52,716 bases of DNA from Escherichia phage BEK12A. How positions within the stretch are numbered: the stretch's first letter is position 1; every line of letters starts with the position of its first letter. This document shows, in pieces, positions 1 to 49,299 of the stretch. Below the pieces are notes generated by a model. The model worked only from the letters and a program-made list of their open reading frames with translations. It made no database searches and was not told the DNA's origin. The position numbers were made by a program, and so were the translations under genes. The stretch is from sequence record MN158210.1; one strand, written 5' to 3'.

Positions 1-528
1 ATGGCTAAAAATGTTGAGCCTGCTGTAAAGGCATTAAATTTCAAAGAGTTATACAATAAAACTTATGGCGATATTGTCACGCTAAACAACCGCCACAAGT
101 ACACGCCGGAACAGGTTTTTGATATGGCGATCCGCTATTTCACTTGGGCCGAAGAGAATCACATCCAGGCGGCTGAAACTGCTTCCTTTCAGGGTGACGT
201 GTACGAGAGCAGAGTTTACAAGCCTCGCGTTTTCACGGTTAACGGATTCAGCTTGTATCTCGGCGTGACTGAGGCTGCCGTAAGCAAATGGCGTAAAGAG
301 CCTGGATTCTGCGATGTGATGGAGTTTGTTGATAAAGTAATTTACGAGCAAAAATTCCAGCTTGCGGCAAATAACATGATTAACGCTGGATTTATCGGTA
401 AAGAGATCGGAGTAGAGAAGCCAGCAACAGTGAGCGTTGAAGCGAGCGCGGCAGCTAATGCAAGCATTGACGCAGTAACTGCCGATGAGGTTAAAGAGGC
501 TGTGATTGATATTCTGGAGAAGATATAA
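1..528 (+). CDS. putative terminase small subunit
   Basis: 175-aa ORF directly upstream of the terL/HNH block; RBS GGAGGA sits at the extreme 3' end of the window (circular permutation); position-based call. Confidence 0.5.
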   Translation: MAKNVEPAVKALNFKELYNKTYGDIVTLNNRHKYTPEQVFDMAIRYFTWAEENHIQAAETASFQGDVYESRVYKPRVFTVNGFSLYLGVTEAAVSKWRKEPGFCDVMEFVDKVIYEQKFQLAANNMINAGFIGKEIGVEKPATVSVEASAAANASIDAVTADEVKEAVIDILEKI

Positions 529-1019
529 TGAACTACTCAGATTACTTTGTCTTATCTGACGAATCGCCAAGCGGCTTGAAATGGAAGGTTAACAAAGGTA
601 GATCTAAGGTTGGAGATAACGCGATAACTGCTATCAGTGGCGGCTACTATAAAGGCCGCCTTAACCAAAAAACTGTATATGCGCACAGAATTGTGTTTGC
701 ACTTTACTATGGCTTTGAGCCTGATGTTGTTGATCATATTGATGGTGATGGTTTGAACAATAATCCGTTAAATTTAAGGGATGGAACAAAAGCAACGAAT
801 AATCAAAACCGCGTGGTGTTTGGGGCTTACTATCACAAAAGGGATGGTGTTTTTTATTCCTCGATATGTGTTAACGGTGAAAGGTATCATTTAGGAACAT
901 TTAAAAGTGAGATTGAGGCAAGGGCTGCGTACATTTCAGCAAAGCCAAAATTTCACGAGTTCGCAAATATGGAGAGGTATAAACATGCTAATTTGGGAAG
1001 ACTTGACGCCAGCGCATAA
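528..1019 (+). CDS. HNH homing endonuclease (HNH plus AP2-like DNA-binding domain)
   Basis: HRIVFALYYG...DHIDGDGLNNNPLNLRDGTKATNNQNR motif; C-terminal AP2-like segment; overlaps terS stop (ATAATGA). Confidence 0.85.
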   Translation: MNYSDYFVLSDESPSGLKWKVNKGRSKVGDNAITAISGGYYKGRLNQKTVYAHRIVFALYYGFEPDVVDHIDGDGLNNNPLNLRDGTKATNNQNRVVFGAYYHKRDGVFYSSICVNGERYHLGTFKSEIEARAAYISAKPKFHEFANMERYKHANLGRLDASA

Positions 1020-2553
1020 AAGAGCAATCAAGGAAATGAGCGAGCACTCATTCGAAAAGATGATCAGAATATGGTTTCCTCTTTTGCAAGGTCAGAAATT
1101 CTTAGGAAACTGGCATTTCAGCTACCTATGTAGCGAAGTTGAAAAAATAATCAAAGGAGAGTCGCAGAATGTGATTTTCAACATTACGCCAGGTAGCGGT
1201 AAGACTGAGATTTTCTCGATCCACATGTCACCCTACGCGTCATTGAAAAGCCGGAAAGTGAGAAACCTTAACCTTTCGTTTAGTGATGGCCTTGTCCAGC
1301 AAAACAGCAACCGGATAAAGGAGATTATTGGTTCTCCTGAGTGGCAAGAGCTATGGCCTGGAAAACTGGCAAAGGCGAGCGCTAAAGATCTGATAGTCAC
1401 CGAAGGCGGCAAGGTTAAATTGCAAGTTAACTCACGTTCTATTGGCGGCCAGGTAACAGGTTTGCGTGGCGGCTATATGGATGATGGTTTTACTGGTATG
1501 CTGGTTCTTGACGATCCAGACAAGCCGGATGACATGCTTTCTAAGGTCAAGCGCGAGGCTATTCACATGCGGTTAAAAAACACAGTGCGATCGCGTCGAA
1601 TGAAAGACACCACGCCAATTGTTATGGTGCAACAGCGACTACACGTTAATGATTCCACCTGGTTCATGCTTAATGGCGGGATGGGTGGTATTGAGTTTAA
1701 AGTTGTGAGCATTCCGGCGCTGGTTACGAAAGAATACCGCGAAACGCTTCCTGATTGGTTAAGGCATGAGTTTGATCGCGATGTTTTGTCCAGCAAGCCA
1801 GTAATGATTGATGGAGTTGCTCATTATTCATTCTGGCCTGCTAAGGAAAGCGCGGAGGAATTACTTGCACTTCGCAATGCTGATCCGTACACGTTCGCTA
1901 GTCAGTACCAGCAACAGCCTGTTGCGCTTGGCGGTAACGTGTTTAAAACAGAGTGGTTTCAGTATTACGGCAGCAGCGAGAAATGCACGCTACCAAAACC
2001 GGATCGCTTTGAATATACATTTATCACGGTTGATACCGCGCAGAAAACAGGTGAGCTTAACGACTACTCCGTGATCTGTTATTGGGGGATGTATAAAGAT
2101 CGCGTTTACTTCATTGATGGTGTTCGCGGAAAATGGGAAGCACCAGACCTTGAGACTAATTTTGTTGCGTTCGTTAATCAGTGCTGGAAGCGCAATAAAG
2201 AATGCGGAACGTTGCGAAGGATTCATGTTGAAGATAAGTCATCTGGTACTGGCTTGATTCAGAGCGCAGCGAAAAAAATCATGATCAAGATCAATCCCGT
2301 TCAGCGAGATAAAGATAAGGTTACGCGAGCAATGGACGCAGCACCAGTAATGCGCGCCGGACGCGTGGCACTTCCAGAATCGCATCCTATGCTGGCTGAG
2401 ATACTCGCTGAAGTTGCGGCGTTTACATTCGATGATAGCCATCCTCATGATGATATTGTTGACACATTGATTGATGCCGTTAATATAGAAATGAACTTGG
2501 CAGACGATCCAGTTGGAAGAATGAAGAAGTTAGCAGGGCTTAGAAAGAGATGA
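985..2553 (+). CDS. terL: terminase large subunit
   Basis: ATG at codon 27 of the 907..2553 ORF preceded by GGAGAGG; Walker A-like NITPGSGKTE; C-terminal nuclease-like acidic residues; size typical. Confidence 0.85.
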   Translation: MLIWEDLTPAHKRAIKEMSEHSFEKMIRIWFPLLQGQKFLGNWHFSYLCSEVEKIIKGESQNVIFNITPGSGKTEIFSIHMSPYASLKSRKVRNLNLSFSDGLVQQNSNRIKEIIGSPEWQELWPGKLAKASAKDLIVTEGGKVKLQVNSRSIGGQVTGLRGGYMDDGFTGMLVLDDPDKPDDMLSKVKREAIHMRLKNTVRSRRMKDTTPIVMVQQRLHVNDSTWFMLNGGMGGIEFKVVSIPALVTKEYRETLPDWLRHEFDRDVLSSKPVMIDGVAHYSFWPAKESAEELLALRNADPYTFASQYQQQPVALGGNVFKTEWFQYYGSSEKCTLPKPDRFEYTFITVDTAQKTGELNDYSVICYWGMYKDRVYFIDGVRGKWEAPDLETNFVAFVNQCWKRNKECGTLRRIHVEDKSSGTGLIQSAAKKIMIKINPVQRDKDKVTRAMDAAPVMRAGRVALPESHPMLAEILAEVAAFTFDDSHPHDDIVDTLIDAVNIEMNLADDPVGRMKKLAGLRKR

Positions 2554-3032
2554 ATTGGCACGATATTTTCTATATAGAAGATGATAAGCTATTCAATAAA
2601 GTTGATAGGGGAGCAAGGGCAATGGCTGGCAAGGAGGCTGGCTGCTTGCATAAGAATAGCGGTTATGTAGTTGTAAGGGTTGACGATAAGCTGCTAAAAG
2701 CGCATAGGATAATTTACGAAATGCGCCACGGTGCAATACCAGAAGGAATGGAGGTTGACCACATAGACCACAATAGATCAAACAACTCTGACAGCAATCA
2801 TAGGCTGGTTACGCATAAGGAAAATACACAAAACGTAACAAGGAGAAAGACAAACAACAGTGGTTGCACTGGTGTTTATTGGTATGAGTCAAGATCAAAA
2901 TGGTGGTCTTTTATTGGAACTGGCAAGGGCAGAAAATCACTTGGCTATTATTCTGACTGGTTTGATGCCGTTTGCGCCAGAAAGAGAGCGGAGTTTGAGC
3001 TTGGTTATCACGAAAACCACGGCAAGAAATAG
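2550..3032 (+). CDS. HNH homing endonuclease
   Basis: HRIIYEMRHGAIPEGMEVDHIDHNRSNNSDSNHRLVTHKENTQN; paralog of 528..1019; overlaps terL stop. Confidence 0.85.
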   Translation: MNWHDIFYIEDDKLFNKVDRGARAMAGKEAGCLHKNSGYVVVRVDDKLLKAHRIIYEMRHGAIPEGMEVDHIDHNRSNNSDSNHRLVTHKENTQNVTRRKTNNSGCTGVYWYESRSKWWSFIGTGKGRKSLGYYSDWFDAVCARKRAEFELGYHENHGKK

Positions 3033-17348: not shown

Positions 17349-20300
17349 ATGGCTGAAAATATGATAACTGGCAGTAAGGGCGGAAGCAAAAAGCCATACG
17401 TGCCAAAAGAGATGGAAGATAACCTGATCTCGATAAACAAGATTAAAGTTTTGCTGGCTGTATCTGATGGCGAATGCGATCCAGATTTCACGTTGCGTGA
17501 TCTTTATCTTGATGATGTTCCGGTTATTGCCAGCGATGGCACTGTTAACTATGAGGGGGTAACGGCTGAATATAGACCAGGTACACAGACGCAAGATTAC
17601 ATCCAGGGGTTTACTGACACATCAAGCGAGGTGACAGTTTCGCGAGATATTACAGCAGACAATCCCTATATTATCTCTGTAACAAATAAAAATCTTTCTG
17701 CAATCAGAATCAAGATTCTGATGCCAGTTGGCATAAAACAGGAGGATAACGGCGATCTTGTTGGTGTAAGGGTTCAATATGCCGTAGATATGGCTGTTGA
17801 TGGCGGTTCTTATAACGAGGTTATGAGAGATGTAATTGATGGCAAGACAAGATCAGGATATGACCGCAGCAGAAGGATTGATCTTCCTAAGTTTGATGAG
17901 CGCGTTTTAATCAGGGTCAAGCGACTGACTCCAGACAGCACATCTTCAAAGGTGACTGATAAAATCAAACTGCAAAGTTACGCTGAGGTTGTGGATGCAA
18001 AATTCCGTTATCCTCTGACTGGCCTTGTATTCGTAGAATTTGACAGCGAATTGTTTCCTACGCAAATCCCTAACATTTCTATAAAAAAGAAATGGAAGAT
18101 TATTAATGTGCCAAGCAACTATGATCCAATATCTAGAGAATATCACGGGTCATGGGATGGGACTTTTAAAAAAGCGTGGTCAAATAATCCTGCTTGGGTT
18201 CTTTATGATCTGGTAACTAATCAGCGTTATGGACTTGACCAGCGAGAGTTAGGAATACAGATCGACAAGTGGAGCTTATACGAGGCTGGTGTTTACTGTG
18301 ATCAGAAAGTTCCAGACGGTAAGGGCGGTACAGAGCCTCGCTACCTATGCGATGTGGTGATCCAGAATCAGGTTGAGGCTTATCAGCTAATCCGTGACAT
18401 TTGCTCAATCTTTCGCGGAATGAGCTTTTGGAATGGAGAGAGCTTATCAATCGTAATTGATAAACCGCGCGATCCATCATACGTGTTTACTAATGAAAAC
18501 GTCATCAACGGTGATTTTCAGTACACAGCAGCAAGCGAAAAAAGCATGTACACGCAATGTAATGTGACGTTTGACGACGAACAAAACATGTATCAGCAGG
18601 ACGTAGAGGGGGTTTTTGATACTGAGGCGGCATTACGATTTGGATACAATCCAACAAGCATTACAGCGATCGGGTGTACACGCAGGAGCGAAGCGAATCG
18701 TCGCGGTCGGTGGGTTTTGAAAACAAACCTTAGAAGCACTACTGTAAACTTTGCTACCGGACTAGAGGGGATGATTCCATCCATAGGTGATGTGATTGCT
18801 ATCGCTGATAATTTTCAGAGCAGCAATCTAACGCTAAATCTTTCGGGCCGAGTAATGGAAGTTTCAGGCTTGCAAGTTTTCGTTCCGTTTAAGGTTGATG
18901 CGCGTCCTGGTGATTTTATTATCATCAACAAGCCGGACGGAAAGCCAGTTAAGCGAACGATCTCAAAGGTGAGCGCAGACGGAAAAACCATTGAGTTAAA
19001 TATTGGCTTTGGTTTTGATGTTAAGCCTGATACTGTTTTTGCGATTGACCGTACTGACCTTGCGTTGCAGCAATACGTTGTGACAACTATCAGCAAGGGT
19101 GATGACGAAAACGAGTTTACCTATTCAATCACGGCTGTAGAGTACGATCCGAACAAATACGACGAGATTGATTATGGAGTAAACATTGATGACAGGCCAA
19201 CTTCAATTGTTCAGCCTGACGTGATGGCAGCGCCTGAGAACGTGCAGATCTCTTCTTATTCTCGCGTCGTGCAGGGTGTAAGCGTTGAAACTATGGTTGT
19301 GTCGTGGGAAAAAGTGCCTTATGCATCGCTCTATGAAATGCAGTGGCGTAAAGGTGATGGAAACTGGCTGAATACACCACAGACCGCAAACAAAGAAATT
19401 GAGGTTGAAGGTATTTATTCAGGTAACTACCAAGTAAGGGTGAGATCTGTTTCTGCTTCCGGTTCTACGTCGCCGTGGTCAAAGATTGCAACCGCCACCC
19501 TGACAGGTAAAGTTGGCGAGCCAGGAGCGCCGATTAATCTTACAGCTTCTGATAATGAAGTTTTTGGCATTCGTGTCAAATGGGGTATGCCGGAAGGATC
19601 GGGCGATACGGCTTACATTGAGCTTCACCAATCGCCAGATGGGACGGTGGAAAACTCAAGTTTGCTTACGCTGATCCCGTATCCTCAATATGAGTATTGG
19701 CATAGCACGTTACCAGCGGGTCAAGTTGTATGGTATAGAATCCGTAGCGTTGACAGGATCGGCAACGTTTCCGGCTGGACTGACTTTGTTCGCGGCATGG
19801 CGTCAGATGATGTTGAATCTGTTTTAGGCGACATTCTGGACAAGATTTTTGATACCGAAGCGGGTCAAGAAATCAAAGAGAACGCCATAGACAGTGCAAA
19901 CAAAATCAAAGACCAGGCGCAATCAATCATCCAGAACGCATTGGCAAACGATGCCGATGTGAAGTGGACGCGAGTACAAAACGGAAAGCGTAAGGCTGAA
20001 TATGGTCATGCACTGGAGCTTATTGCTAACGAAACGGAGGCGCGAGTAACTCAAATCGAAGAGTTAAAGGCGTCAATTGATGAAGATATAGTTTCAAGTA
20101 TCAAAACCGTTCAGGAAGCGATTGCCAATGAATCAGAGACGCGAGCTACTCAAGTTCAGCAGCTTGATTCTAAATTTACGAAGGAAATAGACGGCGTAAA
20201 ACGAGATACGGCTGCAAGCATTGGCGAGGTAAGGCAAACCATTACCAATGAATCAGAAGCGCGTGCTCAAGCCGTTCAGCAGCTTGACGCTAAGTTCACG

Positions 20301-20927
20301 AAAGAGATAAACGACCTTGACGGAGTTATCAAAACAGAAGTCGAGGCTAACATCTCAGAAGTGAAACAGGCGATCGCCAATGAGACAGAGGCAAGGGTTC
20401 AGGCTGACCAGGCTTTAACAGCTAAATTCGGAGATGTTGAATCAGCACTAGCCGAAAAACTTGATTCGTGGGCTAACGTTAATTCTGTTGGCGCTAAGTA
20501 CTCTATGAAATTGGGCCTTACTTACAATGGTCAGAAGTACAGCGCAGGAATGATCATGCAGTTGTCGCAATCTTCTCAAGGCTTGATCTCGCAAATCTTG
20601 TTTGATGCTAACAGGTTCGCGATCATGACTAGCTCTACTGGCGGAACGTTTACTTTGCCTTTCGTTGTTGAAAACAACCAGGTTTTCATTAACAGCCTGC
20701 TAGTTAAAAACGGTTCAATTACAAATGCCATGATCGGTAATTATATTCAGTCGAATAACTTTGTTGCCAATCAGCAGGGTTGGAGGCTGGATAAAAACGG
20801 CAGATTTGAGAACTACGGAACTAGAGCGGGAGAAGGAGCTACAAAATTCACTAACGAAGGCTTAAAGGTGAAAGATGCAAATGGACGATTGAGAGTTGAG
20901 ATAGGGAGAATAACCGGAAGTTGGTAA
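17349..20927 (+). CDS. tail tip / central tail fiber protein (lambda gpJ-like host specificity protein)
   Basis: 1192 aa; follows M-L-K-I block; C-terminal coiled-coil repeats (NESEARA..VQQLD.KFTKEI repeated). Confidence 0.8.
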   Translation: MAENMITGSKGGSKKPYVPKEMEDNLISINKIKVLLAVSDGECDPDFTLRDLYLDDVPVIASDGTVNYEGVTAEYRPGTQTQDYIQGFTDTSSEVTVSRDITADNPYIISVTNKNLSAIRIKILMPVGIKQEDNGDLVGVRVQYAVDMAVDGGSYNEVMRDVIDGKTRSGYDRSRRIDLPKFDERVLIRVKRLTPDSTSSKVTDKIKLQSYAEVVDAKFRYPLTGLVFVEFDSELFPTQIPNISIKKKWKIINVPSNYDPISREYHGSWDGTFKKAWSNNPAWVLYDLVTNQRYGLDQRELGIQIDKWSLYEAGVYCDQKVPDGKGGTEPRYLCDVVIQNQVEAYQLIRDICSIFRGMSFWNGESLSIVIDKPRDPSYVFTNENVINGDFQYTAASEKSMYTQCNVTFDDEQNMYQQDVEGVFDTEAALRFGYNPTSITAIGCTRRSEANRRGRWVLKTNLRSTTVNFATGLEGMIPSIGDVIAIADNFQSSNLTLNLSGRVMEVSGLQVFVPFKVDARPGDFIIINKPDGKPVKRTISKVSADGKTIELNIGFGFDVKPDTVFAIDRTDLALQQYVVTTISKGDDENEFTYSITAVEYDPNKYDEIDYGVNIDDRPTSIVQPDVMAAPENVQISSYSRVVQGVSVETMVVSWEKVPYASLYEMQWRKGDGNWLNTPQTANKEIEVEGIYSGNYQVRVRSVSASGSTSPWSKIATATLTGKVGEPGAPINLTASDNEVFGIRVKWGMPEGSGDTAYIELHQSPDGTVENSSLLTLIPYPQYEYWHSTLPAGQVVWYRIRSVDRIGNVSGWTDFVRGMASDDVESVLGDILDKIFDTEAGQEIKENAIDSANKIKDQAQSIIQNALANDADVKWTRVQNGKRKAEYGHALELIANETEARVTQIEELKASIDEDIVSSIKTVQEAIANESETRATQVQQLDSKFTKEIDGVKRDTAASIGEVRQTITNESEARAQAVQQLDAKFTKEINDLDGVIKTEVEANISEVKQAIANETEARVQADQALTAKFGDVESALAEKLDSWANVNSVGAKYSMKLGLTYNGQKYSAGMIMQLSQSSQGLISQILFDANRFAIMTSSTGGTFTLPFVVENNQVFINSLLVKNGSITNAMIGNYIQSNNFVANQQGWRLDKNGRFENYGTRAGEGATKFTNEGLKVKDANGRLRVEIGRITGSW

Positions 20928-22118: not shown

Positions 22119-22173
22119 CTTCAATACTCCTTAGTTGTTGTTGGCTGTAACTATACACGATCCGGCAAGCCGA

Positions 22174-22192
22174 GTTTAGCAAAAAGTGCTAT
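22174..22192 (-). promoter_or_regulatory. conserved 20-bp box upstream of leftward lipoprotein operon (variant GCTAAAC)
   Basis: minus strand reads ATAGCACTTTTTGCTAAAC, then 18 bp, then TATAGT. Confidence 0.5.
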
Positions 22193-22254
22193 TTGTTATT
22201 TTTTGTTTTCCGGTGTTATCGGATTTAAGACGGCGTAAATTTAGCGCAAATCTT

Positions 22255-22460
22255 AGCCAACATAAGAACAATAAATAATCAATAAAATAGATATATACAT
22301 ATAAAATCAATAGTTTATTTATTTATGTATGTATATTTGTTTTTTCTTGTTATCTGTGTTTCTTGTGGTTTTGGTTGTTTGTGGTGATTTTTCTTTCTGA
22401 GTATCTGTATGTGCCATCATTCATGTGTATGTATATAATCCGGCGTATCTGAGAGAACAA
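22255..22460. repeat. AT-rich noncoding repeat region A (homologous to 43890-44030)
   Basis: TATTTATTTATGTATGTATATTTG..TTGTTATCTGTG..TTGTGG..TTTGG..GTATCTGTATGTG shared with region B. Confidence 0.6.
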
Positions 22461-22561
22461 GGGAACAAGAAAAATAACACATATTAATCATTAACTTACT
22501 CGTCAAATTTGTTTTATTGCCATCTGAGAACGTTTAGAAAACAGAAAAAACAAAACAACTA

Positions 22562-22589
22562 TTGACTAAATCAACCAAATGGCTACAAT
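22562..22589 (+). promoter_or_regulatory. sigma-70 promoter (TTGACT-16-TACAAT) for recombination operon
   Basis: near-consensus hexamers about 30 nt upstream of the 22620 start. Confidence 0.6.
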
Positions 22590-22619
22590 GCACACACAAA
22601 GCAACGAGGAGCATTAAAG

Positions 22620-23747: not shown

Positions 23748-24404
<657 letters not shown>

Positions 24405-28424: not shown

Positions 28425-28901
28425 TTAGCTATTCGTGCTGTTATCACCTTTGTAGAATCGTCCGCCTGGTTCGTAGTCTGAATTTTTGACTACGCGCAAC
28501 ATTTCGTATTTGTCGCAACGGGTAGTAAGAGGCTTGCCGTTAGAATCAAACCGCAGATCTGGACGACAAAACGAGGCGCGGTATCCTTTGCATCCATTAT
28601 ATTTGTAGTCGTTATGCACCTTTTGTGCTCCAGCGGCTGAAATCATACCACGCTTTCGCCATTGGTTAACAACTTGCTGAGATACGCGCAGACGTCGAGC
28701 CATAGCAGGAACGCCGCCGTAATACTCGATCAGAATGTCAAGGCGAGATTTCAGGCTTGCTTTTACCTCATCTCGCAGGATAAGAAATCCGGTTCGGTGT
28801 TTTCGTGGCTTTTTGTCTTTACCTCGTCGCGTTCCGTTGTTACCGTTAATAGTGCGCTTGTCGATCTCACCCGTAGACACTGCAATTCGTGCATCTTTCA
28901 T
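28425..28901 (-). CDS. HTH DNA-binding protein (Cro/YdaS-like helix-turn-helix)
   Basis: YGGVPAMARRLRVSQQVVNQWRKRG motif; RBS GAGGTG; first gene of leftward operon. Confidence 0.5.
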   Translation of the reverse strand: MKDARIAVSTGEIDKRTINGNNGTRRGKDKKPRKHRTGFLILRDEVKASLKSRLDILIEYYGGVPAMARRLRVSQQVVNQWRKRGMISAAGAQKVHNDYKYNGCKGYRASFCRPDLRFDSNGKPLTTRCDKYEMLRVVKNSDYEPGGRFYKGDNSTNS

Positions 28902-32655: not shown

Positions 32656-32913
32656 ATGAAAAAAGAGAGAAGCGTTTATTTAAATGAAACTGGCGAATGG
32701 TTGTTATTTCGCGCTATGGTGTGCGATGCACTTGATAAAAATCCTAACGTGAAAAAGATGATTGATTGCGATCCGTGGGAATTTTCAAGCGCATTAGATA
32801 TGAGCTTTGAGGAGACAAGAAAACTCCCGCTTGAAAAATGGCACGAACAAATCAGAAATGACATGCAAGAGTTTGTCGATTCGTGGAATTTTCAGCACGG
32901 AATGATCCACTAA
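32656..32913 (+). CDS. hypothetical protein
   Basis: 85 aa ORF ending in TAA that abuts the conserved box. Confidence 0.45.
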   Translation: MKKERSVYLNETGEWLLFRAMVCDALDKNPNVKKMIDCDPWEFSSALDMSFEETRKLPLEKWHEQIRNDMQEFVDSWNFQHGMIH

Positions 32914-32957
32914 TAGCACTTTTTGTTAAAACGCCCGGCCTAGTGTCGGGCATAATT
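32914..32957 (+). promoter_or_regulatory. conserved box - hairpin - CATAAT module
   Basis: ATAGCACTTTTTGTTAAAAC, CGCCCGGCCTAGTGTCGGGC, ATAATT; inverted twin at 36135-36173. Confidence 0.6.
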
Positions 32958-32988
32958 ATTTCAACGAAGCAAACATGAGGAAATAAAA

Positions 32989-36093: not shown

Positions 36094-36129
36094 AATTTTA
36101 CCTTTTGGTTGTTTCGTTTCGATGAAACA

Positions 36130-36173
36130 AATATACCCGACACTAGGCCGGGCGTTTTAACAAAAAATGCTAT
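36130..36173 (-). promoter_or_regulatory. conserved box - hairpin - TATATT module (leftward)
   Basis: minus strand ATAGCATTTTTTGTTAAAAC, GCCCGGCCTAGTGTCGGG, TATATT, then CATCGAAACGAA box. Confidence 0.6.
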
Positions 36174-36364
36174 TCCATACGCTTTACCGTAACCAGTAAT
36201 ACACCATCATCATTGCATAAAACATGTTCAGTGGTGCTAAAAGCGCGCATATCTGAATAAAGTAGCGTAAGTAAAGCATGAATAAAATCCTCATGTGATA
36301 TTGAATTTACGGCGCAGTGCTTCAAGATCTTGTCTATTAGCTTTTGCCTGGAACAATTCATCAT
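36170..36364 (-). CDS. hypothetical small protein (start uncertain)
   Basis: stop TAG lies inside the conserved box like other early genes; 5' end overlaps upstream gene; possible RBS GGGGAGA. Confidence 0.3.
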   Translation of the reverse strand: MMNCSRQKLIDKILKHCAVNSISHEDFIHALLTLLYSDMRAFSTTEHVLCNDDGVLLVTVKRME

Positions 36365-43269: not shown

Positions 43270-43541
43270 TACTTCTTGATCTCCTCACTGATAAATTTCA
43301 GCACCTGACGTAAGAAAACCTCGTTGTTGATAGTCGCTGGCAATTCTTCTTTCACTTCTTGCGGCAGATAGATATTGCCGTGCCAGGTCAAGCAATCGTA
43401 GTTGATGCGATAAGAGCAAAGCCACTCGCAATCGTTATCTGCTTCCCAAATGCAGAGTTGCAGAACATCGCCAAAATCCTCAACAGTCAGATCCAGACCG
43501 TGACGCTTAGCGAAGTTGAAAGTGGTTTTGCTGATGTTCAT
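43269..43541 (-). CDS. hypothetical protein (first gene of leftward early operon)
   Basis: 90 aa; RBS CAGGAGA. Confidence 0.5.
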   Translation of the reverse strand: MNISKTTFNFAKRHGLDLTVEDFGDVLQLCIWEADNDCEWLCSYRINYDCLTWHGNIYLPQEVKEELPATINNEVFLRQVLKFISEEIKK

Positions 43542-43575
43542 TGCTATCTCCTGAGCGGTTCGTTTCGATGTGTGT

Positions 43576-43619
43576 AATGTACCCGATCAGGTGGTCTGAG
43601 TTTTAACAAAAAGTGCTAT
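43576..43619 (-). promoter_or_regulatory. conserved box - TACATT - CATCGAAACGAA module heading the leftward early operon
   Basis: minus strand ATAGCACTTTTTGTTAAAAC, then 18 bp, then TACATT; no gene upstream, so it acts as operon leader. Confidence 0.6.
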
Positions 43620-43644
43620 TTGACGGTTAGCGCCAGGATTGTGA

Positions 43645-43745
43645 TCGAAATAATCAAAAGTAATCATTCGTAATCAAATCACGTCAAAATGATGATTGCC
43701 TTTGCAAATTTTATGAGAAAAGTAATCACGTTTAATCATTGGTTG
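43645..43745. repeat. phased TAATCA direct repeats (iteron-like)
   Basis: TAATCA at about 43651, 43661, 43671 (10-bp phasing) and again near 43723 and 43734. Confidence 0.5.
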
Positions 43746-43889
43746 CAGGGGAGATAGTGAAACCTTCCCCTCTTGCCTCACTTTTTTGCCTGGCTGTCAG
43801 TGGTTGTTATGTTCCGTTCCCTCCTGTTCTTTTGTTGACCTTCCGCAAAATACGATAACAAAAAATAACAAACAATACCTATATAATAC

Positions 43890-44030
43890 ATTGAAAAATA
43901 AGGATTATTTATTTATATGTATCTATATATTCTCTTTTGTTATCTTGGTTATTGTGGTATTTGGTGGGGGTATATAGTTTTTGTGTATCTGTATGTGTGT
44001 ATGGGTATGTAGGGGCATATATATCTATAT
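43890..44030. repeat. AT-rich noncoding repeat region B (homologous to 22255-22460)
   Basis: TATTTATTTATATGTATCTATAT..TTTTGTTATCTTGG..TTGTGG..TTTGGTG..GTATCTGTATGTG. Confidence 0.6.
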
Positions 44031-44158
44031 GGCGCTTTCCGCGAGAAAACTTCGATAACAGGCAATGATAACATTGATTTATAAGGAAAAATAACTCCTA
44101 TATTGTTATTGTGCCACCATATAAAATTGATAAAACACGCAGGAACAAGAAAAAACAG

Positions 44159-44187
44159 TTGACACATTAAATAGCATTATTGATAAT
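44159..44187 (+). promoter_or_regulatory. consensus sigma-70 promoter (TTGACA-17-GATAAT) for rightward early operon
   Basis: perfect -35, 17-bp spacer, good -10, about 30 nt upstream of 44216 start. Confidence 0.7.
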
Positions 44188-44215
44188 GCCCACACCTAAC
44201 AACCAGGAGGCAGAA

Positions 44216-44680
44216 ATGAGCGAGCAATCATTCACTGACACGCTGCGCCGTGCCGCTATTATGCTGGCTAATGGCGAGGAAGAGACGATCAAGATTCCTG
44301 ACGCGTATTTGCAGGTCCACATGTTCGGCAAGAAGTCGGCAAGCAATCCGGCGGCCTACATTCGCCAGATCATGAGTCGAGTGCCAGAAGTCGCCGAGCG
44401 GGGGCGCGTATCCGTTACCCGTGGCGTTTACGGGCCGGAAGATGAAAACTTCGGTAGCACTTTCTACGAGGTGCGCATTGTTGAAGGCCGTCGCAAGGTT
44501 TACAACAAAGAGGCACTGGAAAGGGCAGTACGCCAGGCTAAGCGCAAGGTTGCAGAGGCGATCATTGATATGTCACCAAACCTGGCAAACTATGCGCCGG
44601 AAGAGTACGAAACATTATCAAAGGCCGTCGCTGACTTTCACGCGATGATCAAAAAAACTTTCCTGGAGGATGAGCAATGA
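44216..44680 (+). CDS. hypothetical early protein
   Basis: ATG at codon 13 of the 44180 ORF with RBS AGGAGG; about 154 aa. Confidence 0.5.
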   Translation: MSEQSFTDTLRRAAIMLANGEEETIKIPDAYLQVHMFGKKSASNPAAYIRQIMSRVPEVAERGRVSVTRGVYGPEDENFGSTFYEVRIVEGRRKVYNKEALERAVRQAKRKVAEAIIDMSPNLANYAPEEYETLSKAVADFHAMIKKTFLEDEQ

Positions 44681-45940: not shown

Positions 45941-45982
45941 TAGCACTTTTTGTTAAAACTCAAATGTGGGGCCAGATATAAT
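45940..45982 (+). promoter_or_regulatory. conserved box - hairpin - TATAAT module
   Basis: ATAGCACTTTTTGTTAAAAC, GGGCCAGATATAATGGCCC with TATAAT 17-18 bp after box; stop TGA abuts box. Confidence 0.6.
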
Positions 45983-46012
45983 GGCCCTACTTTCAACGAG
46001 AGGGGAAACGCG

Positions 46013-48708: not shown

Positions 48709-49299
48709 ATGAAACGAGACATTATCATCCTTAATGGGCCTCCAGGTTGCGGGAAGGACACTATTGCAGCTTACCTAACGGGCCATCGTTACCAAGCGGT
48801 TAAGGCATCATTCAAGCAACCTATGTTCGACATTGCTTTTTCTATGCTTGGCCCGACTCGATACGATGAATTTATGGACCTGTACAACGACCGAGAGCAA
48901 AAAGAAAAGCCTCAAGTTATCTTAGGCGGCAAGTCACCTCGACAATTCATGATCTGGATTAGCGAGGATGTAATGAAGCCAGTTTTTGGGGATCACTATT
49001 TCGGGCGTCGAATGGTTGAAGAGATTCACGAGATGTACCGAGATTTGGCGGTTGTGATCAGTGATGGCGGATTCCCCGAAGAAATCAAGCCGCTCGTTAA
49101 GGCGGGGCATGAGGTGCATATTTGCCGATTGCATCGCTACGGCTTCACGTTTGCTGGCGATTCGAGAGACTACATTGACCTGAGCGGTTATCACTATCGA
49201 ATCCATCACTATGATTTCCACTTGCAGGACGGTAAGCCGGAACTGGCTGTAAACGAGATCGTCAATGCTGTCAAATGGAAGCACACACAGATTAAATAG
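48709..49299 (+). CDS. P-loop kinase (nucleotide / polynucleotide kinase-like)
   Basis: Walker A ILNGPPGCGKDT at extreme N-terminus, typical of small NMP/polynucleotide kinases. Confidence 0.5.
   Translation: MKRDIIILNGPPGCGKDTIAAYLTGHRYQAVKASFKQPMFDIAFSMLGPTRYDEFMDLYNDREQKEKPQVILGGKSPRQFMIWISEDVMKPVFGDHYFGRRMVEEIHEMYRDLAVVISDGGFPEEIKPLVKAGHEVHICRLHRYGFTFAGDSRDYIDLSGYHYRIHHYDFHLQDGKPELAVNEIVNAVKWKHTQIK

What the first reader, a model, noticed from the sequence alone, without database searches (positions are those of the whole stretch)
43625..44215. Region B: second copy of the AT-rich repeat block plus a consensus TTGACA-17-GATAAT promoter at the head of the rightward early operon
About 590 bp of noncoding DNA between the two divergent early operons. 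It carries the homolog of the region A repeat block, a hairpin (GGGGAGATAGTGAAACCTTCCCC) and a near-perfect sigma-70 promoter. The ORF-track ORF 43786..43977 inside it has low complexity and no RBS, and is probably not a gene. Two homologous control regions suggest duplicated regulatory DNA driving host-polymerase early transcription in both early blocks.
Basis: seen in the sequence. Interest (0 to 1): 0.55.

Follow-up and report, generated by a model that had tools for sequence, protein, structure and literature searches.

The report
T1-like phage control region, possible origin
This 674-bp gene-free stretch of a T1-like coliphage carries a conserved strong host-type promoter, one of two ancient copies of an extremely AT-rich, symmetric, repeat-studded DNA module that may be the family's never-identified replication origin, and probably the DNA-packaging start site.

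Summary
The window is the whole genome of Escherichia phage BEK26 (Drexlerviridae), rotated to start at terS. The observation mostly holds. The stretch 43542-44215 is non-coding and lies between divergent operons. TTGACA-17-GATAAT (44159-44187) is real and conserved across the family. Region B is homologous to region A (22119-22619) over about 365 bp, far beyond what composition explains. The hairpin is not significant, and ORF 43786-43977 is not a gene.

The interpretation, duplicated early-promoter DNA, is only partly right. Region B has three parts:
- a leftward promoter of the known T1/TLS "21-nt repeat" class;
- a block found only in B (43622-43845) with five phased TAATCA repeats, which lies where the T1 and TLS records place the genome end (pac);
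- an anciently duplicated module made of oriented TGTT/AACA site arrays around a dyad-symmetric AT core, ending in the sigma-70 promoter.

The two AT cores are the two least stable duplex segments in the genome. They sit 250-350 bp from the rightward start sites, so they are not promoter elements. My best reading (about 0.4) is an origin-like protein-assembly site coupled to divergent early transcription. A purely transcriptional operator or enhancer array is nearly as likely (about 0.33). No experiment exists either way. The papers I could read report that no origin was found for T1-like phages.

The parts
43576..43620 (-). Leftward promoter of the T1/TLS '21-nt direct repeat' class. The repeat AATAGCACTTTTTGTTAAAAC is at 43620->43600, followed by 18 nt and then the -10-like hexamer TACATT at 43581->43576. 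It lies 59-80 nt upstream of the leftward ATG at 43541.
   Evidence: There are 15 copies in the genome with 3 or fewer mismatches, against 0 expected. All copies are followed 18-19 nt later by a -10-like hexamer. The element matches the TLS consensus aaATAGCACnnnTTGnTAAAA (PMC11447400).
43651..43738 (+). Five direct TAATCA repeats at 43651, 43661, 43671, 43723 and 43733, phased at 10 bp. They lie in the B-specific left block, which is the candidate pac / TerS-recognition region.
   Evidence: Five copies against 0.75 expected, P about 1e-3. This is the top TAATCA cluster in the genome. The block shows 10.5-bp periodicity. Region A has no counterpart. T1 and TLS carry TGATTG/TGATTA-type repeats at the same place, around their record starts.
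43689..43698 (+). ATGATGATTG box. Similar boxes (TLS ATGATGATTG, T1 ATGATGAG) lie 10-20 nt to the left of position 1 of the TLS and T1 records. By position, the BEK26 packaging cut would fall at about 43690-43745.
   Evidence: Read directly. The T1 record annotates a terminal repeat at 1..2800. The TLS record starts with the AGATTT that its authors assigned as pac. This is an inference from position only.
43748..43770 (+). The box GGGGAGATAGTGAAAC (43748-43763) is conserved in sequence; the stem is not significant.
   Evidence: Fold z-scores are +0.42 and -0.93. The box is conserved across Tempevirinae, and T1 has GGGGGGATCTAGTG.
43786..43977 (+). ORF of 63 codons with a TTG start; not a gene.
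   Evidence: It is interrupted by stops or frameshifts in relatives. It is not annotated in BEK26. It runs across the AT core.
43795..43845 (+). Outer left array of TGTT sites on the top strand (for example TTGTTATG at 43804).
   Evidence: Strand-resolved site track; TGTTAT enrichment.
43847..43947 (.). AT-rich dyad-symmetric core (82% A+T), centred near 43903. The left arm is A-rich and G-poor with AACA sites. The right arm is T-rich and C-poor with TGTT sites.
   Evidence: It is the second least stable 100-bp window of the genome, z 4.5; the first is its paralog in region A. The dyad fold has z -2.7. The core is conserved across the family.
43905..44015 (+). G+T-rich, C-poor right arm (5 C in 111 nt) with TGT-containing sites and three TATCTRTAT repeats (43920, 43986, 44022).
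   Evidence: The region is homologous to A 22315-22425.
44050..44158 (+). Promoter-proximal array of AACA sites (GATAACA at 44055 and 44068; GGAACAAGAAAAAACAG abutting the -35). It includes an A-rich UP-like tract at about -38 to -50.
   Evidence: AACA/GTAAC-type sites lie next to the -35 in the aligned homologs.
44159..44187 (+). Near-consensus sigma-70 promoter PB: TTGACA, 17 nt, GATAAT.
   Evidence: 11/12 matches. Hits of this quality are rare genome-wide. Both hexamers are conserved in all region-B homologs.
44205..44218 (+). RBS AGGAGG (44205-44210) and the ATG (44216) of the first rightward gene, a DUF7174 protein.
22119..22619 (.). Region A, the paralogous control region upstream of recE-erf-ssb. 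It holds a 21-nt repeat (22173-22193, minus strand), TGTT/AACA arrays, an AT core (22262-22362) and the promoter PA, TTGACT-16-TACAAT (22562-22589).
28425..28901 (-). Candidate trans-acting binder: a 158-aa Cro/YdaS-like HTH protein (the ST23 'transcriptional regulator' of T1), encoded between the primase and the helicase.
   Evidence: Pfam and PHROG hits; Cro-like PDB hits; conserved family-wide. Binding to these sites was not shown. The covariation test was inconclusive.

Best explanation
Region B is the main cis-acting control region of a T1-like phage genome. It is composite.

(1) Shown by sequence and conservation. A near-consensus sigma-70 promoter (PB, 44159-44187, with an A-rich UP-like tract) fires rightward into a block of small genes. 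A promoter of the phage-specific 21-nt-repeat class (43576-43620) fires leftward.

(2) Shown. Between the two promoters lies one of two ancient paralogous copies of a module of about 370 bp; the other copy is region A, upstream of recE-erf-ssb. In each copy a dyad-symmetric core of 82-84% A+T is flanked by four blocks of short TGT-containing sites (TGTTAT/AACA in BEK26, TGTAAC in T1). Site orientation alternates + - [core] + -. The two cores are the two most easily melted stretches of the genome.

(3) Inferred. The module is a platform for a sequence-specific protein. Candidates are the Cro-like HTH protein encoded between primase and helicase, or the P4-alpha-like zinc-ribbon primase itself. 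I propose that it acts as a replication origin. Protein bound to the site arrays, together with the negative supercoiling generated behind the two diverging RNA polymerases, opens the AT core. The phage primase and helicase then load onto the G+T-rich template strands of the two arms. Region A would be a second origin or a cis-acting partner.

(4) Inferred from position. The block found only in B (43622-43845), with five phased TAATCA repeats and an ATGATGATTG box, is the packaging (pac) region.
For: - The promoter has 11 of 12 consensus matches. It is one of three hits of that quality in the genome. Its hexamers are conserved in all homologs, while the spacers and flanks vary.
- The paralogy is real: E 2e-27, score 73 against a null maximum of 38. 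It is also seen within T1 (E 5e-11) and within TLS (E 2e-12). Orthologs cluster A with A and B with B, so the duplication predates the family's divergence and both copies have been kept.
- The two AT cores are the two least stable windows at 50, 100 and 200 bp (z 3.9-4.8).
- Both paralogs are dyad-symmetric (z -2.7 and -2.3).
- TGTTAT occurs 7 times in B and 4 times in A; these are the top two clusters in the genome. In T1, 7 of the 24 genomic TGTAAC copies lie in region A. Another lineage has 10 copies of ATTACA.
- The sites occupy conserved alignment columns. The TGT is largely invariant and the flanking bases vary.
- Block orientation alternates in the same way in A and B, and the arms are strongly strand-biased: the left arm is 5% G and the right arm 4.5% C.
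- The cores lie 250-350 bp from the rightward start sites, too far away to be promoter elements.
- The phage encodes a primase, helicases and SSB, but no recognised initiator.
- Papers on two T1-like phages report no origin: the TLS paper found no iteron repeats, the SU57 paper no oriC-like site (PMC11447400; PMC7718038).
- For pac: the T1 record starts inside its own region B with an annotated terminal repeat at 1..2800. The TLS record starts at its assigned pac AGATTT in the same block. The SU57 paper places the end in this UTR.
Against: - There is no experimental datum on replication, transcription or packaging for BEK26.
- There are no DnaA boxes. An IHF consensus occurs only in the core of region A.
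- The 'iterons' are short (6-7 bp) and degenerate. In Tempevirinae only TGTT/AACA is constant. Within-genome A-B motif concordance is only moderate (cosine 0.41-0.69, overlapping the cross-genome values).
- BEK26 and contig 032316 have 99%-identical HTH proteins, yet the bases flanking their promoter-proximal sites differ. The HTH-to-site pairing is therefore not supported by covariation.
- In T1, regions A and B use largely different motifs: TGTAAC in A and GTTAATC in B.
- The third divergent junction of the genome (about 28.9 kb) is also among the least stable regions. AT-richness therefore partly tracks divergent promoters in general.
- Site arrays that reach the -35, and in T1 the 5'UTR, fit transcriptional control equally well.
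- The T1 and TLS genome ends come from restriction mapping plus sequence similarity, so they are not nucleotide-precise.
Confidence: 0.4

Rival explanations
1. The region is purely a transcriptional control region; this is the first reader's view, extended. In this reading the AT-rich module is an operator or enhancer array. A phage regulator (for example the Cro-like HTH protein) or a host nucleoid protein (H-NS, Fis, IHF) binds the TGTT/AACA sites and the bendable AT core. Binding boosts the two consensus immediate-early promoters PA and PB and later shuts them off, in the manner of the phi29 p4/p6 early-late switch region. There would be no role in replication.
For: - The only recognisable DNA binder near the replication genes is Cro-like and is annotated as a transcriptional regulator.
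- Sites abut the -35 in all lineages, and in T1 region B they also lie in the 5'UTR.
- Both copies end in a conserved consensus promoter. TLS has only three intergenic sigma-70 promoters, one of them upstream of the exonuclease gene (PMC11447400).
- CGATAAC sequences resemble the H-NS nucleation motif; this comparison rests on my own knowledge.
- A and B in T1 use different motifs. That is easier to explain for promoter-specific regulators than for one initiator.
Against: - The AT core is 250-350 bp from the rightward start sites, far beyond UP-element or activator range.
- About 20 sites spread over 370 bp, with an alternating block orientation and extreme strand bias conserved since before the family diverged, is more than known Cro-type operators need.
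- The region holds the genome's two melting minima.
Confidence: 0.33
2. The whole of region B, including the AT-rich block, is a packaging signal. Region A would be a secondary or relic pac-like site.
For: The T1 and TLS record starts, and the SU57 coverage step, fall in this intergenic region. Phased repeats are typical of TerS binding sites; this is from my own knowledge.
Against: - The T1 and TLS ends map to the block found only in B, to the left of the shared module.
- A single pac does not explain an equally conserved copy at region A.
- The TerS HTH does not covary in any obvious way with the left-block motif.
Confidence: 0.07
3. The block encodes an unannotated small protein or a non-coding RNA, for example transcripts running outward from the TATAAT and TATAAATA sequences in the core.
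For: A TATAAT at 43882-43887 and, on the other strand, a TATAAATA at about 43909-43916 are conserved in several lineages. Outward transcripts would be G/U-rich.
Against: - The ORF is not conserved.
- There is no Rfam match at the gathering threshold, and only chance-level hits at E<1.
- No -35 or extended -10 accompanies these hexamers.
- The G+T-rich arm is poorly conserved in sequence.
Confidence: 0.05
4. The block is non-functional AT-rich spacer that was duplicated together with a promoter.
For: The sequence is low-complexity and the promoter-proximal half diverges strongly between close relatives.
Against: Both copies have been retained, with the same architecture, from T1 to BEK26.
Confidence: 0.03

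Closest known systems
T1/TLS intergenic 21-nt direct repeats and the few sigma-70 promoters of TLS (PMC11447400)
   Same: The leftward element at 43600-43620 matches the TLS consensus. It is oriented with transcription and lies upstream of a start codon. Region A's promoter corresponds to the TLS promoter upstream of the exonuclease gene. T1 and TLS have the same A and B regions.
   Different: That paper does not describe the AT-rich paralogous module. It states that no iteron-like repeats were found anywhere in the genome and leaves the origin open. Here, every 21-nt repeat is followed at a fixed 18-19 nt by a -10-like hexamer.
Satellite phage P4 ori and crr. These are two separated cis-acting regions with TGTTCACC iterons bound by the alpha primase-helicase. 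The ori/crr details are from my own knowledge; the winged-helix domain of alpha is cited in PMC2777425.
   Same: Both systems have two distant homologous non-coding regions with many short TGTT-type sites in both orientations. The T1-like primase resembles the N-terminal half of P4-alpha-type primases (phrog_510 positions 7-316 of 667; zinc ribbon PF08273). TLS and relatives even carry TGTTCAC.
   Different: The BEK26 primase lacks the SF3 helicase and the winged-helix origin-binding domain. No winged-helix initiator was detected. The site sequence differs in BEK26 (TGTTAT) and T1 (TGTAAC). The regions are about 21 kb apart, and each ends in a consensus promoter.
Bacillus phage SPP1 oriL and oriR (from my own knowledge)
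   Same: A virulent pac-type siphovirus with two homologous origin regions far apart. Each has repeated initiator boxes next to an AT-rich unwinding region.
   Different: The SPP1 boxes are bound by a known initiator (G38P), and oriL lies inside its gene. No cognate initiator is identified here, and both copies are intergenic.
Promoter-coupled phage origins: T7 primary origin, T4 oriF/oriG, lactococcal phage c2 ori (from my own knowledge)
   Same: An AT-rich unwinding element sits in a non-coding region next to early promoters. Transcription activates or primes initiation.
   Different: In those origins a promoter fires into the AT-rich element. Here both flanking promoters fire away from it, so activation would have to come from supercoiling, not from an R-loop primer.
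phi29 early-late switch region, p4/p6 (from my own knowledge)
   Same: Multiple regulator sites lie between divergent promoters and build a large nucleoprotein complex.
   Different: The phi29 region is about 220 bp with four sites and is not duplicated. It has no extreme AT core lying distant from the promoters.

Membership tests
Sigma-70 (housekeeping) promoter | A -35 like TTGACA and a -10 like TATAAT (A at position 2, T at position 6), separated by 16-18 bp | tested here: met
   TTGACA-17-GATAAT, 11 of 12 matches. It is one of three such hits in the genome.
Sigma-70 (housekeeping) promoter | Placed upstream of a gene, with the hexamers conserved while the flanks drift | tested here: met
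   The -10 ends 28 nt before the ATG, and an AGGAGG lies between them. The hexamers are conserved in 10 region-B homologs, and the paralogous promoter in 17 region-A homologs that include T1 (one further A sequence is truncated before the promoter).
Sigma-70 (housekeeping) promoter | Transcription initiation by E. coli RNA polymerase holoenzyme | not testable with these tools
   No transcription start map of a T1-like phage was found in the searchable literature.
T1/TLS 21-nt direct repeat | Match to aaATAGCACnnnTTGnTAAAA, intergenic, oriented with transcription, tens of nt upstream of a start codon | tested here: met
   An exact copy lies at 43600-43620 on the minus strand, 59-80 nt upstream of the ATG at 43541 (PMC11447400).
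Iteron-type replication origin | AT-rich DNA-unwinding element | tested here: met
   The cores of A and B are the two least stable windows of the genome.
Iteron-type replication origin | Several copies of a specific repeat that binds the initiator | tested here: inconclusive
   Clusters of TGTTAT (BEK26), TGTAAC (T1) and TGTAATC (L034) are unique or nearly unique in their genomes. However, the sites are only 6-7 bp, degenerate, and in both orientations.
Iteron-type replication origin | A cognate initiator protein encoded by the replicon | tested here: inconclusive
   The only candidate is a Cro-like HTH protein between primase and helicase. Its covariation with the sites is not convincing.
Iteron-type replication origin | Host-factor sites (DnaA boxes, IHF) | tested here: not met
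   There is no TTWTNCACA in A or B. One IHF consensus occurs, in region A only. This feature is not universal among phage origins.
Iteron-type replication origin | Supports initiation of DNA synthesis | not testable with these tools
   This needs marker-frequency, 2D-gel or plasmid assays.
P4-type ori/crr system | Two separated cis regions that share the same iterons | tested here: inconclusive
   The feature is met in BEK26 and TLS and only partly in T1.
P4-type ori/crr system | A multifunctional alpha protein (primase, SF3 helicase and winged-helix origin binder) | tested here: not met
   The BEK26 primase is 309 aa and covers only the N-terminal half of the family profile. The separate helicase is RadD-like SF2.
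pac site of a headful-packaging phage | Coincides with the first packaging cut or the end of the terminal redundancy | tested here: inconclusive
   The homologous block holds position 1 of the T1 record (terminal repeat 1..2800) and of the TLS record. The SU57 coverage step falls in the same UTR. No virion-end data exist for BEK26.
pac site of a headful-packaging phage | Recognition repeats matched to the small terminase | tested here: inconclusive
   Phased TAATCA repeats are present. The TerS HTH differs between motif groups, but not in an informative pattern.
Intrinsic terminator or structured hairpin | A stable G+C-rich stem, with a T-run if it is a terminator; more stable than shuffled sequence | tested here: not met
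   z-scores are +0.42 and -0.93. The scan found no terminator in 43542-44215.
Protein-coding gene (ORF 43786-43977) | Reading frame conserved in relatives, with an RBS | tested here: not met
   Relatives carry stops or frameshifts. No AGGAGG-like sequence lies upstream.
Known RNA family | Rfam covariance-model match | tested here: not met
   No hits at the gathering threshold; only chance-level hits at E<1. No tRNA genes.

The most novel reading that the evidence does not exclude
Regions A and B are the long-sought replication origins of T1-like phages (Drexlerviridae). They would form a paired, ori/crr-like system. In it, alternating arrays of TGT-containing sites load a phage protein (the Cro-like HTH protein or the zinc-ribbon primase) on both sides of a symmetric unwinding core. 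Divergent early transcription would supply the supercoiling that fires the origin. In region B this origin would sit immediately beside the pac site.
Probability: 0.3. Interest if true: 0.7.

Novelty: new variant of a known kind. Interest (0 to 1): 0.5.

Why it matters
T1 is one of the original seven T-phages, and its relatives are common laboratory contaminants and therapy candidates. In the papers I could read, the origin of replication of T1-like phages is reported as not found (PMC11447400, PMC7718038), and their transcription programme is described only from sequence predictions. This analysis gives two precisely bounded, family-wide conserved candidate elements (43847-43947 and 22262-22362). 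It also gives their flanking site arrays and a short list of candidate binding proteins. The origin question therefore becomes directly testable with plasmid-amplification, marker-frequency or footprinting experiments. Two further results are that the 21-nt repeats behave as the upstream half of a promoter class, and that pac probably lies in the left third of region B. If the module turns out to be only a transcriptional operator array, the finding is ordinary phage regulatory DNA.

Tried and rejected
- Hairpin or terminator at 43748-43770: folding is no better than for shuffles on either strand, and the scan found no terminator.
- ORF 43786-43977 as a gene: the frame is not conserved.
- Known RNA: Rfam at the gathering threshold over the whole genome, Rfam at E<1 over the region, and ARAGORN all gave nothing meaningful.
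- Host initiation signals: no DnaA boxes, and a single IHF consensus, in region A only.
- A-tract bending: there is no 10-11 bp AAA/TTT periodicity in the shared module; it appears only in the TAATCA block.
- Covariation of the small terminase HTH with the left-block motif: uninformative.
- Covariation of the Cro-like HTH protein with site sequence. The recognition helix varies between lineages. However, 99%-identical proteins coexist with different site flanks. TGTNNN profiles of A and B agree only moderately within genomes.
- Concerted evolution of A and B: rejected, because orthologs cluster.
- Copies of the module in E. coli genomes or plasmids, such as satellites or decoys: none.
- Additional strong sigma-70 promoters inside B: none. 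A has a 10/12 match at 22411-22439.
- Literature searches for a T1-family origin, iterons or a transcription start map found nothing beyond the TLS and SU57 papers.
Full report
**Identity and context**

The window is the complete 52,716-bp genome of Escherichia phage BEK26 (MN158216.1; Drexlerviridae, Tempevirinae, Warwickvirus). It matches at 100% identity and is rotated so that position 1 is the start of terS; window coordinate = record coordinate + 22,177.

The finding lies in the 674-bp gap between two diverging gene blocks. A leftward block of small genes runs from 43541 to 35869. A rightward block starts at ATG 44216 and runs on into the terminase and structural genes. "Region A" is the 501-bp gap at 22119-22619. 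It separates a leftward three-gene block (Cor-like and membrane proteins) from the rightward recE-erf-ssb operon.

**Checking the observation**

- The region is unannotated.
- TTGACA-17-GATAAT is at 44159-44187 with 11 of 12 matches. Only three hits of that quality exist on both strands of the genome.
- Region B aligns colinearly with region A from the AT-rich block through the promoter to the Shine-Dalgarno sequence. B 43845-44208 matches A 22258-22611 at 65% identity, E 2e-27. The local score of 73 compares with 13.7 +/- 1.7 for dinucleotide shuffles and 25.1 +/- 4.3 (maximum 38) for shuffles that preserve the local AT profile. The similarity is therefore homology, not composition.
- The left ends of the two regions also match, through a shared 21-nt element.
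- The "hairpin" is not significant (z +0.42 and -0.93).
- ORF 43786-43977 is broken by stops in an 83%-identical relative and in more distant ones.
- No Rfam family and no tRNA is present.

**Anatomy of region B, left to right**

(a) Leftward promoter. At 43620->43600 (minus strand) lies an exact copy of AATAGCACTTTTTGTTAAAAC. The genome has 15 copies with 3 or fewer mismatches, against 0 expected. Nearly all are oriented with the local genes. This is the "21-nt direct repeat" described for TLS, T1 and Rtp, whose function is listed as an open question (PMC11447400). Aligning the BEK26 copies shows that each is followed, 18-19 nt after its last base, by a -10-like hexamer (CATAAT, TATAAT, TATATT, TACATT, TATAGT and so on). 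Often a G+C-rich inverted repeat fills the spacer or brackets the -10. The repeat therefore behaves as the upstream half (about -52 to -31) of a promoter class. The leftward promoters of both A and B belong to this class.

(b) The B-specific block, 43622-43845, has no counterpart in A. It contains five direct TAATCA repeats at 43651, 43661, 43671, 43723 and 43733, that is, in 10-bp phase. Other lineages carry different short repeats here (GGAATA/TATTCC, TGATTG) but keep the G-rich box.

(c) The shared module, 43795-44215, has the following elements in order:
- a block of TGTT sites on the top strand;
- a block of AACA sites (TGTT on the bottom strand);
- an AT core (43847-43947, 82% A+T) with dyad symmetry centred near 43903;
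- a G+T-rich, C-poor arm with TGT sites and three TATCTRTAT repeats;
- a second short TATATA element;
- a block of AACA sites running up to an A-rich tract that abuts the -35 of PB.

Region A shows the same + - [core] + - pattern.

**How unusual the module is**

- The two cores are the two least stable duplex windows in the whole genome at window sizes of 50, 100 and 200 bp (z 3.9-4.8).
- Both cores fold as long imperfect palindromes better than shuffles (z -2.7 and -2.3).
- TGTTAT occurs 7 times in B and 4 times in A, the two densest clusters in the genome.
- The arms are extremely strand-biased. The left arm has 3 G in 56 nt and the right arm 5 C in 111 nt, and A shows the same bias.

**Comparative evidence**

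I retrieved 43 loci upstream of the exonuclease gene from IMG/VR, including T1 and TLS themselves, and about 25 loci upstream of the first leftward gene.

Region A is alignable across Tempevirinae and Tunavirinae. The -35 TTGACT, the -10 TAyAAT, the central TATATA-rich core and a series of columns containing TGT are conserved. The bases that follow each TGT differ by lineage: TGTTAT/TGTTCT/TGTTTA/TGTTCAC in Tempevirinae, TGTAAC in the T1 group (7 of 24 genomic copies lie in region A), and TGTAATC in another Tunavirinae contig (10 copies of ATTACA).

Region B shows the same architecture in every lineage, with TTGACA and (G/T/C)ATAAT conserved.

T1 and TLS each carry both regions with detectable A-B paralogy (E 5e-11 and 2e-12). 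Core sequences cluster by orthology (A with A, B with B). The duplication is therefore older than the family's radiation, and both copies have been maintained.

The module has no match in 5,426 complete E. coli genomes or in 72,556 plasmids.

**Which protein might bind**

The phage encodes the following near its replication genes:
- a 309-aa primase with a T7/P4-type zinc ribbon, which corresponds to the N-terminal half of P4-alpha-like primase-helicases;
- a RadD-like SF2 helicase;
- between the two, a 158-aa protein with a Cro/YdaS-type helix-turn-helix. It is the ST23 "transcriptional regulator" of T1.

The HTH protein is conserved family-wide, and its recognition helix varies between lineages. 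I could not show covariation with the sites. BEK26 and contig 032316 have 99%-identical proteins, yet the bases flanking their promoter-proximal sites differ. TGTNNN profiles of A and B agree only moderately within genomes. The near-invariance of TGT with free flanks would also fit a conserved reader, such as the primase zinc ribbon or a host protein.

**Packaging**

The T1 RefSeq record begins inside T1's region B, about 57 bp to the left of its GGGGGGATCTAGTG box, and annotates 1..2800 as a repeat region, that is, the terminal redundancy.

The TLS authors mapped pac by restriction analysis and assigned it to an AGATTT. The TLS record starts with exactly that hexamer, in the same block.

The SU57 paper reports a read-coverage step in the corresponding UTR and states that pac of T1-like phages lies there (PMC7718038).

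By position, the BEK26 equivalent is about 43690-43745, between the two TAATCA clusters. This is an inference from homology of position only. The T1 and TLS coordinates are not nucleotide-precise, and TerS covariation was uninformative.

**Interpretation**

Shown: region B is a conserved composite cis-acting region. It has a consensus sigma-70 promoter, a 21-nt-repeat promoter, a B-specific repeat block, and an anciently duplicated AT-core/site-array module.

Inferred, with overall confidence of about 0.4: the module is an origin-like nucleoprotein assembly site. My reasons are:
- The cores are the genome's two melting minima, yet lie 250-350 bp from the rightward start sites, outside the range of UP elements or activators.
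- They are symmetric, and oriented site arrays flank them on both sides.
- They sit between diverging promoters, whose transcription would under-wind the DNA between them.
- The phage has a primase, helicases and SSB but no recognised initiator or origin.

The closest known systems are compared here from my own knowledge. They are P4 ori/crr and SPP1 oriL/oriR (two homologous cis regions) and the promoter-coupled origins of T7, T4 and lactococcal phage c2. Region B fails membership of the P4 system, because the alpha-type helicase and winged-helix domains are absent. It has no DnaA boxes.

The main rival (about 0.33) is a purely transcriptional operator or enhancer array for the two immediate-early promoters. 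Three observations support it: the only visible DNA binder is Cro-like, sites reach the -35 and (in T1) the 5'UTR, and T1 uses different motifs in A and B. The two readings are not exclusive.

Minor rivals are that the whole region is pac (0.07), that it hides an RNA or peptide gene (0.05), or that it is functionless spacer (0.03).

**Novelty and score**

The 21-nt repeats and the scarcity of sigma-70 promoters are already published for TLS. I did not find the paralogous AT-core module, its site arrays or its family-wide conservation described in the searchable literature. The TLS paper states that no iteron-like repeats occur anywhere in that genome, and the SU57 paper that no origin was found.

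The kinds of element involved (promoter, unwinding element with binding-site arrays, pac) are all known. I therefore rate this a new variant of a known kind, with interest 0.5. It is not surprising in principle, but it turns the unanswered question of the T1-family origin into a testable one.

Noticed in passing
window 28912, 31401, 32912, 36154(-), 38316(-), 39308(-), 41790(-), 42296(-), 44945, 45939, 47796, 49295, 50589: Every 21-nt repeat is followed at 18-19 nt by a -10-like hexamer. In many copies a G+C-rich inverted repeat fills the spacer or brackets the -10 (for example GGGCCagatataatGGCCC at 45967-45985). These are promoters with a built-in hairpin, possibly terminator-promoter combinations.
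   Followed up: partly
window 32912-32973 and 36113-36174: A 62-nt inverted repeat, 89% complementary, with arms 3.1 kb apart. Each arm is a 21-nt-repeat promoter with the same spacer hairpin (gcccggcctagtgtcgggc). One arm points rightward into the block that includes the lysis genes; the other points leftward into the leftward small-gene block.
   Followed up: no
window 43972-44216 compared with relatives: Most Warwickvirus relatives are 94-97% identical in the flanking genes and about 85% identical in the left 430 bp of region B, but have an unalignable promoter-proximal half. The BEK26-type half is shared with Shigella phage 2019SD1, and the other type with phage W011D. This suggests mosaic exchange with a breakpoint inside the module.
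   Followed up: partly
window 24349-24378 (+) and 27519-27491 (-): These are the only other 11/12 sigma-70 matches in the genome. TTGACA-18-TAAAAT lies upstream of ssb. TTGACA-17-GATAAT lies inside the 3' end of the primase gene, upstream of the leftward tail-fibre gene.
   Followed up: no
window 22305-22317: AATCAATAGTTTA at the centre of the region A core is one of only four perfect IHF consensus matches (WATCAANNNNTTR) in the genome. The same sequence type occurs in the cores of Hanrivervirus regions A and B, but not in BEK26 region B.
   Followed up: partly
L097 (phage T1), record 48735-48755 and positions 102-122: T1's region B carries two leftward copies of the 21-nt repeat, about 200 bp apart. 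The record start (genome end) lies between them.
   Followed up: no
window 528-3032: Homing-endonuclease genes sit between terS and terL and directly after terL. Two more lie in the leftward small-gene block.
   Followed up: no
window 20116-20328: A 93-nt direct repeat at 120-bp spacing (72% identity) lies inside the large tail-fibre gene.
   Followed up: no
GenBank MG0656xx 'Campylobacter phage' records: About 15-18 records labelled as Campylobacter jejuni phages match this coliphage family across regions A and B. They look like T1-like coliphages carrying a doubtful host label.
   Followed up: no
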